The position numbers and the translations under genes are program-made. 64,000 bases of DNA from assembly GCA_010405405.1 (NCBI GenBank), contig MU004237.1, forward strand, positions 100,191 to 164,190, written 5' to 3'. Each line of letters starts with the position of its first letter. Position 1 is the first letter of the stretch. Below, one piece after another: positions 44,458 through 62,827 of this stretch. The notes below the pieces were generated by a model. It saw only the letters and a program-made list of their open reading frames with translations. It was not told where the DNA came from and did no database searches. This DNA is from Microthyrium microscopicum (lineage: Eukaryota).

Positions 44458-46542
44458 TTACTCTGCTTTAACTCCAAGCGAAGACCAGAAGAAGCTTGTA
44501 ACCTTTGTCCAGACTGAAGTGACTATCTCTACAAGTTTGTCACTTTCAGCTCCAGTCTCCTTTACAATCCCATTTTCTTCCTCCAATGCCTTTGGTGGCT
44601 GCGCTTGTAGCTCCTGGACTGGAGTCCCATCTCCCATCATAATTCCCATAACGTCCATTCCCGGACTTTGCGTTGGGCCCATAGACAATGCAGCAGCCTT
44701 GACCAACCCTAGGGAACCTCTTTGCAAACTCAACTTCAACCCATCAATCACAATGAAATTGAAACTGTCAATGTTCATTGAGTGTTCAAATCGCAGCACA
44801 GGTCGAGCTCGAAGAGCGTCCAGAGCTTGCTTCTCTCCATCATTCAGTTGCGCCTCTATTGCTTTGATCTCGTCGCGAGTCTTGCTAGTGGTTGGCCCAG
44901 CAAGATTGATTCCTTTGATCTTTTGAAGGACACTCTCTTTATCAGCCGCATAGACCTTTTCAAAAGCATGCGAACAAAAGCTGACGGTATTACTGATCTC
45001 TTCCTTAGTCACTTTTCCCCGAGTATCAGCGTCGACAGTGCCTTGAATTACTAGAGATCGTCAACTCGAGGTTATCGTGTCTCTCGAATATCAAAAACTC
45101 ACTAGGGCGGAAAAAGGCAAAAGCTCTGTCAAAACTCTCTTCATCCCAATCATTCAATATTGCGTCCTTCGACGAGTGTATTTGTTTCATAGAGCTCATG
45201 ATGACAAGAAGGAACCGGCTGTAAGTTCCAATCACGTTCTTGGAATGCCATGAAGCTGCGCTTATTTCATTCAATTCTTTCTTGATGGACGCACAAACTG
45301 TCGCTGCAGCACTAAGGCCAGTAGTCAAAGCGATATGATATCCAGACGAGAAGAATGGATCGATGAAACAGCCAGCATCGCCGGCAATACGCGTATATGG
45401 GCAAGAATATACTGAGGCGTTATATGACCAGTCAGAGGCTGACTTTATTTCGGTAACCAGTTCAGACTCAGTTCCAGAAATCAGCTGTATGATGTTGGGA
45501 CAAAGCTTAAGAGCTTCTTGATAGAAATACTTGGTCGTGGCGTACTCTTTTTGGGCTTTCTTTTGAGCCAAAATGCTCTGCTTCATCACAACCCCTACTG
45601 AAGTGGTACCATTATGAAGTGGAATGAACCATGCCCACCCACTACCATCTTCCAGCCTTTTAGAAGATTCTGATTGCGTGAAGTGGGGATAACTCACCTT
45701 CCAATGCTTCAAAGAACGGAGCACCTTCTTGATGAGTGTCAATGCCCCATGTACCAGCATTCTTCCAATATCCCCAATTCGCAACACTCTTGAGACCTTG
45801 GTTATAATGTCTATTCTTCAAGTATTTGGTGGAAATAAGACCTGCTCGTCCAGAGGCGTCAATCAAGTATTCGAACTTTAGCATGCCGCGAGTTCCATTA
45901 TCTTTTCGTGTCCAACTGGCAGAGACTGGCCGACCGGCATTGGCAACAGGGACATTCCGAGGAGCATTGAATGGAGCAAATTGAACATCATCCACCTTCA
46001 CTCCGTCAAAGACTTTAGCTCCTTCATTTCTGGCATGCTTGAAGAGAATGTCATCGGCTTCGGATCGCACAACGTTGTATGCATAACCATCAGAGCCACC
46101 AGCAGCGACAAAATCGGTGTCTACAGTATCGATTAGCTCACGATGTTGCAATGAAGTGATCCTTCGTACATGATGGAGGCAAGCTATGGTTGAGCTTAAA
46201 TGCAGCACCTTTCTACATTGTGTAAGAATGCTGAACATGCTTCATCTACTTTCCGATCTACTTTCTGGTACCTTTCTGCGAAATCCGTGAGAGTCAAATA
46301 TAGAGTCCAGGTCAATCAGTTTGAAGAAATGTCGAATCGATGGAAGCATGCTCTCCCCAATATGGTATCTGGGACTGTGTGAACTAAGCTCTGCTTCAAT
46401 ATCAATTCTTAACGAACCTAGGAAACTTGTCAGCCTCAAGTAGGACAGTGTCTATTCCTTCTCGTGCTAAGAGTGTGGCTGCATAAGATCCAGCTGGTCC
46501 TCCGCCTACTACAAGAACACTACATTTCTCAGGAATTTCCAT
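44458..46542 (-). CDS. Flavin-dependent halogenase, fungal Rdc2/RadH-type, multi-exon
   Basis: [14 protein letters not shown] (FAD binding), [23 protein letters not shown] (catalytic Lys region), [27 protein letters not shown] (WxWxIP halogenase signature), [15 protein letters not shown]. Confidence 0.92.
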
Positions 46543-47637
46543 TTTTCTTGATGCTGCTGGTATTTCGATTCAAGATACAAAACAGGTAGGGCTCTTGACA
46601 GTTACCCTCCACTAGAAAGATTCATATAGTCTATGTAGAGAGGATGTAGGCTAAGAGAACTACCTACAGACAACTACCTGCAGCGTCTACGGCGCTACCT
46701 ACCCCGACTAATTGCAAGCTGCAAGTTGTTTCTCACGCCATACCATGTCTAGAGTCTAGCTGTGTGGAGAAGTTGGAGACGTTGGAGACCTAGGGGCGTA
46801 CATGTACCCAGCTACCAGAAGTGCTTCCAACCAACCCTTTCCCATAAAGCTATCTTTTTTCCGACCTCAAACTGATTGAACAATAAGTATTCTATATCTT
46901 TTCAAAATATCTAGCCCATAGGCACATAACGGCAGCTTTTGTTCAGTCGTATACTTACCAGATTCCGCAGGTTACTTATTTCTGGGCTCTGTTAGCCAAT
47001 CGGTCTAGAAGGGATGAAAAGATAGCATTGGGAGAAGGGGTTACCTGCAAGTACTTTTCGTATCTGGGCGTATTTCATTGGTTACCGAATATTTGCGATC
47101 CTGGGGCGGAAATATTGCCCCATCTGATTACAGTATAGAGGTCGAGGTGGCACGATGTTGATTGTGCCGTTATACTTCCAAGGTTTGTCTACAGAGCCAG
47201 CATTGCTAAATTGATATGATTGGCTTTATTCAAGAGAACTCCGCTCCAGGTGCAGTAGCGTCTCGGCGTCAGCGACAAGAATACTTGTCTCTACCAATTC
47301 GAACATGTTGTGCGAATGTACGATAGCTCAAAGGAGCGTTCACGTGGATATGGAATGCTGCATAATCAGCCTACACTGCCTACCGGTAATAGGCTGTAGC
47401 TGCAGCTCCAACAAGATCCGCACCAAGGGGCGACCACGCTACCGGCGGCATAGAAACCTCAAATATTGATCAACGTAAAGCCAATGTAGGAAGGAATTTT
47501 GAGAAATTTATGACTAAAAGAGCAAACTGCTGGACCAGGCAGTAGTCACGGACCATGGTCTGTTTTTGCTTCTCAATACGCCAATTGCACTTTTTAAAAT
47601 ATTTTTGTATTGAGGATTGGCCAACTTGTGTCTATGC

Positions 47638-60392: not shown

Positions 60393-60866
60393 ACGATGGA
60401 TTTGTATGTTCGCGGTAGATAGTGCGGACTTCAAATCGAGAATCCTTAGCTAGAATAAATTCGATGTGTAACTTGTGCTAACTATGATGAGTTTGGAAGC
60501 TATTTCTGTAAGAAGAACTGAACTGAATCAAGCGTTGAAGCGCTCTTTCAGTAACCTAACACACTGCATTGTTGGTCTGTCGGGCTCACCGAACTGTACG
60601 AATTGTACAAGAGCTCTCATGCAGGCCGAGTTAGATGCATGCGGATTCAATAGGTGTGATAATTAGGGAGACTTTGGTGCCAGTTAGTGTCGTACAACCA
60701 GGTAGGTTCAGAGAGACCATTGGCAGGAAACAAGGATAATGGTTTGTTGCATGCTGGTTACTGGCCGGATCCATTGGACCCGATTTATATATCGCCGCTT
60801 ACTCGTGTCGTGTACCGCCGTTCAAAACTACCAGATAGTAGCCACGGCTTCATATCATATTTAAAA

Positions 60867-62827
60867 ATGCACCTGCCAGATCGGTATACAGATCTATCCT
60901 ACCTCGACTTACTCTCTTATACCTTTGAGAACTTGTCGTCGTATGACCAGAACCAAAGTGTAAGTTTGACATCCTTTAGAGTCAGTCCTTCGGTCATTAA
61001 AAATATGTAGATTTATGTCGACGCTCACGATGAGACCAACCATCTTTCCGCGTTCCAGATCAAGAAGTATGTTGGGAGACTAATCAGTGGCTTCCGAGCA
61101 TATGGTCTGAAACCTGGAGACTGTGTGTTCGTGCACTCCTTCAACAATGTGAGCTTTCTTATTGATATTAAGGGAGACATTTGTACTTATGCATTAGCGA
61201 AGATCTGGTATACAACTTTGTACCTTGCAATTATCGGTGCAGGTGGATGCTGTGCATCAGCCAACCCAAGCTACAAGACATTGGAAATTATTGACCTATT
61301 CACGCTTGCTGAAGCAAAATTCGTAGTCGTTGAACCCGAGCTTCTTCCTAACATACTCCCGGCTATAAAACAATATGGCCTGCCTCTGGCTAACGTCTTC
61401 ACCTTTGATATGAAAACCAAAACAGATTCCAGTGGTTTGACTGCTTTGGGGTCGTTCTTGACATATGCAGAAAGTGACTGGGTTCAATTCAACGATGCAA
61501 AACAAGCAAAGGAAACAGTTGCTGCGCTGCTTTTTACTAGTGGCACCACTGGTCTTCCAAAGGCAGCCGCTATGTCACATTTCTCACTTGTCTCTATGAA
61601 TGTGGCGATACGTGATCCGGAGCCGAAACCATACGAGGTAAGAAAACATAAAACCCTTTCCTTTTGGTACTACCTTATGTAGAAACATAGGGTGCGCGCG
61701 ATGTCCTAGCAACTCACTTTGTCCTAGGTCAATCGACTTCTTTGCTTGCCTCAATTTCACTCATTCAATGCATCACTCACTCATGTGGCGCCGCTAAGAG
61801 ATGGCCATCCTATCCATATCATGCGTCGATTCAATCTTGAGCATTACATCGAATACGCGCAGCAGCATCGCATCACTGAAACAACAATGGTCCCTCCTAT
61901 AGTCATGCAGATCCAAGCCTTCTGCTTGAAAGAACGAGTCTCGCTTTCTACCCTTCAATTGATCCTATGTGCGGGTTCTCCGCTGGAGAAGGAACTCTCC
62001 AAATCAATGTTGAAACTCCTATCACCCACAGCGCGAATGTATCAGGTGTACGGTATGTCGGAAACAGGATGGATCACTTCTCTTTTTTATCCACAAGTAG
62101 ACGAGTCAGGAAGTGTTGGGCGGCTTCTCCCGAATGTAGAGTGCAAGTACGTTTGATCGAATCTCGAACATACACAGTACATTAGGCGATGGACTAACGC
62201 ATGCGTAGAATTGTAGATGAGAACGGTGCAAAAGTTCTGGAAGGCTGCCACGGCGAGCTTCTCGTCCATGGCCCAGCACTAATGACTGGATACTTAGGTA
62301 ATCCTGAGGCAACTAAGCAAGCCTTTGTTGGCAGTTGGTTGAAAACTGGGGACGTTGGCTATATGCAGCAGGGAATGATCTATATTGTTGATCGTGTCAA
62401 GGTAAGATTCCTATGCGCACCGGACCTCGGGCATCGTTTGGACTCAACGGTTCCAATACTAACGCAGTTGATTGCATAGGACATGATAAAGGTGCGAGGC
62501 TGGCAGGTTGCTCCTTCAGAGCTAGAGGCCCATCTTCGCACTCATCCCGCTGTTGCTGATGTTGGTGTCGTTGGAATCAGCCTTCCAGACAGTCTCGGCG
62601 AACTACCTGCAGCTTATGTTGTGCTCAAAGAACCGCAAATTGACCGTCCAGTGACTGCGGATGAATTGATCGAGTATTTGGGAAACCGTTTATCCAAAAT
62701 CAAAGCTTTATCTGGTGGGATCCGATTCGTAGACTCAATCCCTCGCAATGTTAGTGGGAAGATCTTGCGCAAGGAGTTGAGACAGCGAGCACAACAAGAC
62801 TTCAATATTAGCAAAACTGTCGATTAA
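60867..62827 (+). CDS. 4-coumarate:CoA-ligase-like acyl/aryl-CoA ligase (ANL superfamily), multi-exon
   Basis: GLKPGDCV, LLFTSGTTGLPKAA (P-loop), LPQFHSF, QVYGMSE, GELLVHGP, WLKTGDVG, IVDRVK/DMIKVRGWQVAPSELE, IPRNVSGKILR. Confidence 0.92.

What the first reader, a model, noticed from the sequence alone, without database searches (positions are those of the whole stretch)
44458..62827. Halogenase + HR-PKS + CoA ligase + trans-hydrolase + exporter cluster with no visible aromatic-ring-forming enzyme
Seen: five contiguous genes with intact core catalytic motifs (halogenase, MFS, FSH1 hydrolase, HR-PKS, 4CL-like ligase) and no NR-PKS, SDR/cupin, P450, trans-ER or transcription factor among them. 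Known: Rdc2/RadH-type halogenases act on electron-rich aromatic rings and usually occur with an NR-PKS (resorcylic acid lactones, azaphilones). HR-PKSs alone make aliphatic chains, but some accept aromatic starters activated by a cluster CoA ligase (benzoyl-CoA in strobilurin and squalestatin; a pyrrole starter in rumbrin-type polyenes). Inference: the ligase activates an aromatic or heteroaromatic acid, the halogenase chlorinates that ring, the PKS extends it, FSH1 releases the acid and the MFS exports it. I do not recognise this exact five-gene set as a characterised pathway, but I cannot confirm novelty without a search.
Basis: partly seen in the sequence, partly recalled or inferred. Interest (0 to 1): 0.8.

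Follow-up and report, generated by a model that had tools for sequence, protein, structure and literature searches.

The report
Fungal halogenase-polyene synthase gene cluster
Five neighbouring, intact fungal genes probably build, chlorinate and export an unknown unsaturated polyketide; the overall logic is known from the rumbrin pathway, but this cluster pairs a different type of halogenase with a partly disabled synthase, and the halogenase's part in it is unproven.

Summary
The five genes are real, intact and contiguous. No other ketosynthase or NR-PKS was found on the 2.4-Mb contig. The halogenase is RadH-type with K74/D326 kept, and the only one of its type found in the genome. New here: the PKS has lost its C-methyltransferase catalytic residues and probably its enoylreductase lysine, and has no trans-ER nearby, so it should make an unmethylated polyene. 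PKS+MFS+FSH1 is a conserved module (7, 7 and 6 of 7 related loci); halogenase and ligase lie in 0 of 7 within the flanks seen. RadH needs a free phenol, so benzoate, cinnamate or pyrrole would not do. An NR-PKS is not needed either (ochratoxin, rumbrin). AoiQ-type relatives chlorinate aliphatic carbons, and this enzyme groups beside AoiQ-like fusions. Best reading (0.45): a ligase-primed polyene is released by FSH1, chlorinated next to an acidic OH, and exported. Main rival (0.3): the halogenase is a bystander. Verdict: new variant of a known kind; product unknown.

The parts
44458..46542 (-). Flavin-dependent halogenase, RadH/Rdc2-type, 608 aa, 6 exons; [22 protein letters not shown]74, D326; about 80-aa C-terminal extension
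   Evidence: RadH 8gu0 E 2e-161; = P0001
47638..49745 (-). MFS exporter, 592 aa, 7 exons; orthologue beside the PKS in 7 of 7 related loci
   Evidence: 6 of 6 introns spliced in run X1
50418..51369 (-). FSH1 serine hydrolase (putative trans-thioesterase), 280 aa, 3 exons; S92 and H253, D226 by position
52262..60392 (+). HR-PKS KS-AT-DH-MT(dead)-ER(probably dead)-KR-ACP, 2598 aa, 7 exons including a 4-nt micro-exon at 52558-52561
   Evidence: (= P0301); spliced contig
60867..62827 (+). Acyl-CoA ligase of the 4CL/luciferase clade, 541 aa, 6 exons; no C-terminal peroxisomal signal; pocket residues F235, L239, V329, W337
   Evidence: (P0399); 5 of 5 introns spliced in run X1
51370..52261 (.). Divergent promoter region shared by FSH1 and PKS (892 bp)

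Best explanation
A working five-gene pathway for a halogenated polyene. (1, inferred) The ligase turns a small non-acetate acid into its CoA ester and primes the PKS. (2, sequence-supported) The PKS extends it with malonyl units, reducing and dehydrating but neither C-methylating nor enoyl-reducing, which gives an unbranched conjugated chain. (3, inferred) FSH1 releases it as an acid or lactone. (4, inferred) The halogenase chlorinates the released product at a carbon next to an acidic OH. That is either ortho on a phenol brought in by a hydroxy-aromatic starter (about 0.25) or the alpha carbon of a PKS-built 1,3-dicarbonyl or 4-hydroxypyrone (about 0.2). (5, inferred) The MFS exports it. Shown: the genes, their motifs, the spliced transcripts of PKS, MFS and ligase, and the conserved PKS+MFS+FSH1 module. 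Not shown: any substrate or product, or that the halogenase acts on this product.
For: Five intact adjacent genes, bounded by two carboxylesterase genes and an MMgT-family gene. Spliced contigs of run X1 cover MFS (6 of 6 introns), ligase (5 of 5) and PKS. MFS and FSH1 of related loci hit this cluster's genes first in the genome. MT: P1487 where 212 of 267 relatives have G, F1566 where 224 of 263 have the His, R1591 where 145 of 162 have the Glu. ER: D1914 where 205 of 225 have N, T2110 where 121 of 204 have K. Loss of that lysine marks the dead ER of the polyene synthase LpaA (PMC7473843, passages). Trans-ER-like genes lie on other contigs or 1.4 Mb away. This is the only RadH-type halogenase found, and none of 70 scanned ORFs around the four NR-PKS loci hit the halogenase family. 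The cluster has no acyltransferase or NRPS to accept a CoA ester made after release, so priming is the simplest role for the ligase (inference). Precedent: rumCDE + RumH and stpks1 + str10.
Against: Halogenase in 0 of 7 and ligase in 0 of 7 related loci, within about 7 kb upstream and 8 kb downstream of the PKS (these 7 are only about three sequence types, and the left flank ends just past FSH1). The halogenase's sister protein (Tothia fuscella, 59%, support 0.94) lies on a 106-kb contig, not on the 99-kb contig of the only Tothia PKS listed, which is not an orthologue. The cluster holds no PAL, hydroxylase or dioxygenase to make a starter; the genome's one aromatic-amino-acid lyase is about 520 kb away. 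The ligase's best relatives are only 32-46% identical, and its nearest structures include a fatty-acyl-CoA synthetase. The ER call is not certain: 35 of 204 pairwise alignments put a gap at the lysine position, and K2112 lies two residues away.
Confidence: 0.45

Rival explanations
1. The halogenase is a bystander. The pathway is MFS+FSH1+PKS, with or without the ligase, and makes a non-halogenated polyene. The halogenase is an inherited free-standing gene that acts on phenols from elsewhere (an NR-PKS in trans, or the environment).
For: The conserved module lacks it in 7 of 7 loci seen. It has a sister in Tothia fuscella with no shown link to an orthologous PKS. It is the outermost gene. No 7- or 8-mer is shared by all four promoter regions. 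RadH accepts many free phenols.
Against: It lies 1.1 kb from the MFS on the same strand. It is the only such enzyme found in 37 Mb. The four NR-PKSs all end in a TE domain, and no halogenase was seen beside them. The related loci could not be read beyond FSH1.
Confidence: 0.3
2. Acetate-primed pathway. The PKS starts from acetyl-CoA and itself makes the nucleophile (a self-aromatised phenol as in ochratoxin's HR-PKS, or a 1,3-diketone as for AoiQ), which the halogenase chlorinates. The ligase acts after release (re-activation, amide formation, detoxification) or is unrelated.
For: OtaA is an HR-PKS whose cluster has a radH-like halogenase and no NR-PKS. The halogenase groups with halogenase-O-methyltransferase fusions of AoiQ-like layout (support 0.98). 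Related loci work without a ligase nearby. The genome has several ligase paralogues.
Against: No SnoaL cyclase, cupin or SDR gene in the cluster. No acceptor enzyme for a CoA ester. The ligase sits 474 bp behind the PKS, is spliced in the same run, and lacks the SRL/SKL-type tail of several relatives.
Confidence: 0.15
3. A decaying cluster. Loss of MT and ER residues reflects relaxed selection on a PKS that no longer makes a useful product.
For: The MT motifs are lost in this protein but kept in its sister P0121.
Against: No stop or frameshift in any of the five genes; all KS, AT, DH, KR and ACP residues kept. ER loss is shared with P0123, P0291 and P0292, so it is old. PKS, MFS and ligase are found spliced.
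Confidence: 0.1

Closest known systems
Rumbrin cluster rum (Auxarthron umbrinum; PMC9643285, passages and section 2.2 read, supplement not readable)
   Same: CoA ligase + HR-PKS + discrete thioesterase + flavin halogenase, no NR-PKS; polyene chain; chlorination after the PKS.
   Different: RumH is MalA-like and acts on a pyrrole; this enzyme is RadH-like. rum also has a dioxygenase, O-methyltransferase, TF and hACTE-III gene; RumD has an MT domain and no ER, while this PKS has a dead MT and an ER relic. Orthology to RumC/D/E could not be tested.
RadH/Rdc2 phenol halogenases (radicicol; PDB 8gu0; PMC5637929, passages)
   Same: Best structure hit (E 2e-161); K74, D325, F327/F328, S329/S330 and Q413 equivalents kept.
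   Different: N98 is D here; about 80 extra C-terminal residues; no NR-PKS partner; substrate unknown.
AoiQ/NgvE/Dia5 halogenases of the dia cluster (PMC9144378 and PMC13301986, passages)
   Same: Same enzyme family; this protein lies in a clade with about 1000-aa halogenase-O-methyltransferase fusions and a Penicillium nalgiovense stand-alone halogenase.
   Different: It is outside the inner clade holding three of the four fusions and the P. nalgiovense protein; not fused; no NR-PKS, beta-lactamase-like hydrolase or SDR. AoiQ itself was not in the tree, and P0036 = NgvE is unconfirmed.
Ochratoxin cluster ota (PMC7775548, passages)
   Same: HR-PKS with a radH-like halogenase and no NR-PKS.
   Different: No NRPS, P450, SnoaL cyclase or bZIP here; the MT is dead.
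Strobilurin cluster (PMC6158276, passages)
   Same: Cluster CoA ligase primes an HR-PKS whose ER is inactive and has no trans-ER.
   Different: No PAL or oxygenase in this cluster; no C-terminal hydrolase/MT on the PKS; the strobilurin cluster has no obvious halogenase.
Uncharacterised FSH1+MFS+HR-PKS module in fungal metagenome loci L015-L021; related PKSs named from lichen fungi, Talaromyces proteolyticus and Neophaeococcomyces mojaviensis
   Same: Orthologous PKS (45-46% in DH-MT), MFS (42-62% by exon) and FSH1 (about 30%) upstream and divergent.
   Different: MFS/FSH1 order swapped; 5 of 7 have a trans-ER-like gene behind the PKS where this cluster has the ligase; the named relatives keep the MT motifs.

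Membership tests
RadH/Rdc2-type flavin-dependent halogenase | GxGxxG, WxWxI and Fx.Px.Sx.G motifs | tested here: met
   [21 protein letters not shown]; motif definitions from PMC13519999
RadH/Rdc2-type flavin-dependent halogenase | Catalytic K74 and D325 | tested here: met
   K74 and D326 in the alignment to 8gu0; essential residues per PMC5637929
RadH/Rdc2-type flavin-dependent halogenase | Halogenates ortho to a free phenolic OH | not testable with these tools
   needs an assay
AoiQ-type aliphatic halogenase | Groups with AoiQ/NgvE | tested here: inconclusive
   In the wider clade (0.98) but outside the inner one (0.99); 49 of 120 listed homologues used; no characterised reference; midpoint root
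AoiQ-type aliphatic halogenase / dia cluster | NR-PKS and beta-lactamase-like hydrolase in the cluster; O-MT fused or adjacent | tested here: not met
Fungal HR-PKS | KS-AT-DH-(MT)-(ER)-KR-ACP with catalytic C177/H314/H353, S660/H772, H995/D1194, Y2368, S2549 | tested here: met
Fully reducing, methylating HR-PKS | Active cMT (SAM motif, His-Glu pair) | tested here: not met
   P1487, F1566, R1591; the catalytic role of the His-Glu pair is recalled
Fully reducing, methylating HR-PKS | Active cis-ER (conserved Lys) or a cluster trans-ER | tested here: not met
   T2110 for K, D1914 for N, register partly ambiguous; trans-ER homologues unlinked
Rumbrin (rum) cluster | CoA ligase + HR-PKS + discrete TE + halogenase gene classes | tested here: met
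Rumbrin (rum) cluster | MalA-like halogenase, 2-oxoglutarate dioxygenase, O-methyltransferase, TF | tested here: not met
   RadH E 2e-161 against E about 1e-8 for the 667-aa 5wg* halogenases (recalled as MalA'); the other genes are absent
Rumbrin (rum) cluster | Orthology to RumC, RumD, RumE | not testable with these tools
   sequences not available; supplement too large to read
Ochratoxin (ota) cluster | NRPS, P450, SnoaL cyclase, bZIP | tested here: not met
Strobilurin/squalestatin benzoyl-primed clusters | PAL in the cluster | tested here: not met
   single lyase at C8:682 kb
Plant-type 4-coumarate-CoA ligase | Pocket residues Y239, S243, G332, P340 | tested here: not met
   F235, L239, V329, W337 in the alignment to 5bsm; that these residues line the pocket is recalled
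FSH1 trans-thioesterase | Ser-Asp-His triad and PF03959 | tested here: met
   the Asp is assigned by position only

The most novel reading that the evidence does not exclude
Chlorine in place of methyl. Relatives keep an active C-methyltransferase and show no halogenase nearby; this lineage lost the methyltransferase and sits next to a halogenase that groups beside AoiQ-like enzymes. The alpha carbon of a PKS-built 1,3-dicarbonyl or 4-hydroxypyrone, which relatives could methylate, would here be chlorinated. That would be a fungal HR-PKS pathway halogenated on a non-benzenoid carbon with no aromatic-ring synthase at all.
Probability: 0.15. Interest if true: 0.75.

Novelty: new variant of a known kind. 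Interest (0 to 1): 0.5.

Why it matters
If the five genes work together, the cluster is a compact, expressible route to an undescribed halogenated polyene. It would show what a RadH-family halogenase does when paired with an HR-PKS and no ring-forming enzyme. AoiQ was the only fungal aliphatic halogenase known to the 2022 review, so a stand-alone enzyme acting on an enol would be a useful biocatalyst. It would also be a clear case of a conserved PKS module re-purposed by swapping accessory genes (trans-ER out; ligase and halogenase in). If the halogenase is a bystander, this is an ordinary orphan HR-PKS cluster.

Tried and rejected
Expression of the halogenase: in the one run laid (X1, Logan contigs) the three full bins over the halogenase had depth 0, 0.87 and 1.26, against 29-96 over the other four genes. 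Contig depth cannot rank genes and contigs show presence, not absence, so I do not count this for or against; co-expression stays open. No listed holder was on record as RNA; X1 is judged RNA from its GT-AG joints. FSH1 was covered only by an unspliced stretch of the PKS contig, so its splicing is not shown.

A linked NR-PKS: rejected. There were 0 of 7 SAT matches on this contig, and ORFs of 150 aa or more in the next 50 kb showed no PKS by eye (three of them scanned).

An orphaned NR-PKS cluster that lost its halogenase: not supported. I scanned 70 of 95 ORFs of 165 aa or more in 200 kb around the five SAT loci. Four loci are TE-ended NR-PKSs, one is the fatty acid synthase, and none has a halogenase or beta-lactamase-like hit.

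Synteny by accession numbers: no species in the hit lists had a halogenase or ligase tag next to a PKS orthologue. The one same-contig pair (Xylogone) is about 1,500 accessions apart. This test is weak, because few species are shared between the lists. Reading beyond the flanks of L015-L021 was not possible.

Shared promoter motif: AAAGTCTC lies upstream of MFS, PKS and ligase but not the halogenase. 0.23 such 8-mers are expected by chance and it is not in the promoters of related loci, so I rejected it.

GC3 of the five genes is 0.42-0.50, against 0.54-0.64 for three upstream genes and 0.44-0.50 for two others: not informative.

ESM Atlas for the ligase gave only generic names. PDB had no FSH1 relative. 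Earlier findings held nothing on this cluster. Flanking carboxylesterase genes were left out of the cluster: they look secreted and have no counterpart in the related loci by my reading.
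Full report
1. What is there. The window is G000:C8:100191-164190 of a 37.1-Mb, intron-bearing genome. Five genes fill 44458-62827: halogenase (-), MFS (-), FSH1 (-), HR-PKS (+), ligase (+). 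My exon models give stop-free proteins of 608, 592, 280, 2598 and 541 aa, with GT-AG introns and one GC-AG. The halogenase and PKS models equal the public proteins P0001 and P0301 letter for letter. The sources name these and the ligase P0399 as Microthyrium microscopicum proteins KAF2667281..284 and ..285. Contigs of run X1 skip 6 of 6 MFS introns and 5 of 5 ligase introns. They also join PKS exon 1 to exon 3 through the letters TTTT, which confirms a 4-nt micro-exon. To the left lie two carboxylesterase genes; to the right an MMgT-family gene, then a luciferase-domain gene, a histidine kinase and a phenol hydroxylase. No SAT domain (0 of 7 matches) and no other ketosynthase was found on the contig.

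2. The PKS is not a fully reducing, methylating enzyme. KS, AT, DH, KR and ACP residues are intact. The methyltransferase is not: the SAM loop reads GAGTPS (G in 212 of 267 relatives), the His is F1566 (H in 224 of 263) and the Glu is R1591 (E in 145 of 162). The enoylreductase has D1914 for N (205 of 225) and T2110 for the lysine (K in 121 of 204; 35 alignments put a gap there, so the register is not certain). The same lysine is lost in the polyene synthase LpaA (PMC7473843, passages). Three close relatives share the ER decay, but they and the sister protein P0121 keep the MT. No trans-ER-like gene is linked. Inference: the product is an unbranched conjugated chain.

3. A conserved three-gene module, with two added genes. 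A scan of metagenome contigs with a DH-MT alignment gave 8 loci: 7 long ones and one 1.9-kb fragment that I set aside. The 7 fall into about three sequence types. All 7 carry the MFS, and 6 the FSH1 (the seventh is cut short), upstream and divergent. Both genes hit this cluster first when searched back against the genome. Five have a gene behind the PKS that looks like a LovC-type trans-ER (recalled motif, not scanned; read in L015, L017 and L020, inferred by DNA identity for L016 and L021). None has a halogenase or ligase within about 7 kb upstream and 8 kb downstream, but the left flank ends just past FSH1, where a halogenase could still lie. Named PKS relatives come from lichen fungi, Talaromyces proteolyticus and Neophaeococcomyces; their neighbours could not be read.

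4. The halogenase. Its best structure hit is RadH (E 2e-161), and the motifs and residues K74, D326, F328/F329 and Q414 are kept. RadH needs a free phenolic OH and halogenates ortho to it; electron-rich rings without OH were not substrates (PMC5637929, passages). It is the only enzyme of this type found in the genome, and none was seen near the four NR-PKSs. I built a FastTree tree of 49 of the 120 listed homologues, leaving out most partial and redundant rows; it has a midpoint root and no characterised reference. The sister is a Tothia fuscella protein (59%, 0.94), inside a clade (0.98) with four halogenase-O-methyltransferase fusions and Penicillium nalgiovense P0036, and apart from the proteins labelled ascD. 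That fused layout is AoiQ's, an enzyme that dichlorinates an aliphatic carbon (PMC9144378, passages). P. nalgiovense has the split form NgvE/NgvF (PMC13301986, passages); I could not confirm that P0036 is NgvE. So an aromatic ring is not required by descent, though a deprotonatable OH next to the target carbon probably is (inference).

5. The ligase. It belongs with luciferases, plant 4CL and an insect fatty-acyl-CoA synthetase (E 1e-63 to 1e-74), ahead of the salicylate and dihydroxybenzoate ligases (E 1e-31 to 1e-36). Against 4CL it has F235/L239/V329/W337 for Y239/S243/G332/P340, which suggests a shorter, less polar pocket (the pocket assignment is recalled). Its best relatives are 32-46% identical, and it lacks the SRL/SKL-type tail of several of them. 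Its substrate cannot be read from sequence. With no acyl acceptor in the cluster, priming the PKS is the simplest role. A hydroxybenzoate from primary metabolism would need no extra gene (own knowledge); the one aromatic-amino-acid lyase is 520 kb away.

6. Mechanism. Best reading (0.45): ligase-primed polyene, FSH1 release, chlorination after release next to an acidic OH, MFS export. The site is either a phenol from the starter (0.25) or a PKS-built enol or pyrone (0.2). Rivals: the halogenase is a bystander (0.3); an acetate-primed pathway with another role for the ligase (0.15); decay (0.1). Whether the halogenase is co-expressed is open (see Tried and rejected).

7. What is known. Rumbrin has the same four gene classes, with post-PKS chlorination by a MalA-like enzyme (PMC9643285, passages and section 2.2; supplement not readable, and it may hold the family of RumE and the relatives of RumC). 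Strobilurin shows ligase priming of an ER-dead HR-PKS (PMC6158276, passages). Ochratoxin shows an HR-PKS with a radH-like halogenase (PMC7775548, passages). This cluster works like rumbrin but is not a member of any of these: defining genes are missing in each case. Searches of the open library for the gene combination returned rumbrin alone, strobilurin and a review, or nothing; 20 of 22 papers naming the species were listed, and by title none concerns this cluster. Most subscription journals and MIBiG were not searched, so novelty in print is not established.

8. Verdict. Real and intact. A new variant of a known kind: a conserved PKS+FSH1+MFS module that has lost methylation and reduction and now sits between a ligase and a RadH-family halogenase. 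Interest 0.5; 0.75 if chlorination proves to be on a PKS-built enol carbon.

Noticed in passing
window 52558-52561: A 4-nt micro-exon (TTTT) in the PKS, confirmed by an RNA contig that carries these letters between exons 1 and 3; intron 4 is GC-AG.
   Followed up: yes
window 50343-52498: In run X1 one contig runs unspliced through the whole FSH1 gene and the divergent promoter into spliced PKS sequence: either a 1.9-kb PKS leader antisense to FSH1, or intron-retaining FSH1 RNA merged by the assembler.
   Followed up: no
window 39017-40783 (-) and 42627-44204 (+): Two divergent type-B carboxylesterase genes next to the halogenase; the second has a signal-peptide-like start and a spliced intron in X1. 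Not counted as cluster genes.
   Followed up: partly
window 44458-44700: The halogenase has about 80 C-terminal residues beyond RadH's end; the Tothia sister and some other relatives are also extended (aligned to residue 565-580).
   Followed up: no
L002:8001-10118 (-), 8-10 kb beyond the window: A phenol hydroxylase gene, separated from the cluster by three other genes; it could hydroxylate an aromatic starter but nothing links it.
   Followed up: partly
L015-L021, behind the PKS or trans-ER-like gene: All seven related loci drop to 14-29% GC right after the module, as at the edge of AT-rich repeat DNA.
   Followed up: no
G000 C1, C4, C9, C12 (L025-L044): All four NR-PKSs end in a TE domain, and two sit among multicopper oxidase genes; the genome seems poor in PKSs (17 KS matches in all).
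   Followed up: partly
P0116: A Colletotrichum tanaceti record fuses an MFS to a RadH-type halogenase (1050 aa); possibly a gene-model fusion, but it shows the same two genes adjacent elsewhere.
   Followed up: no
window 23205-24725 (+): A long ORF that reads like the part of a HET-domain protein behind the domain (recalled motif; no Pfam hit for this exon).
   Followed up: no
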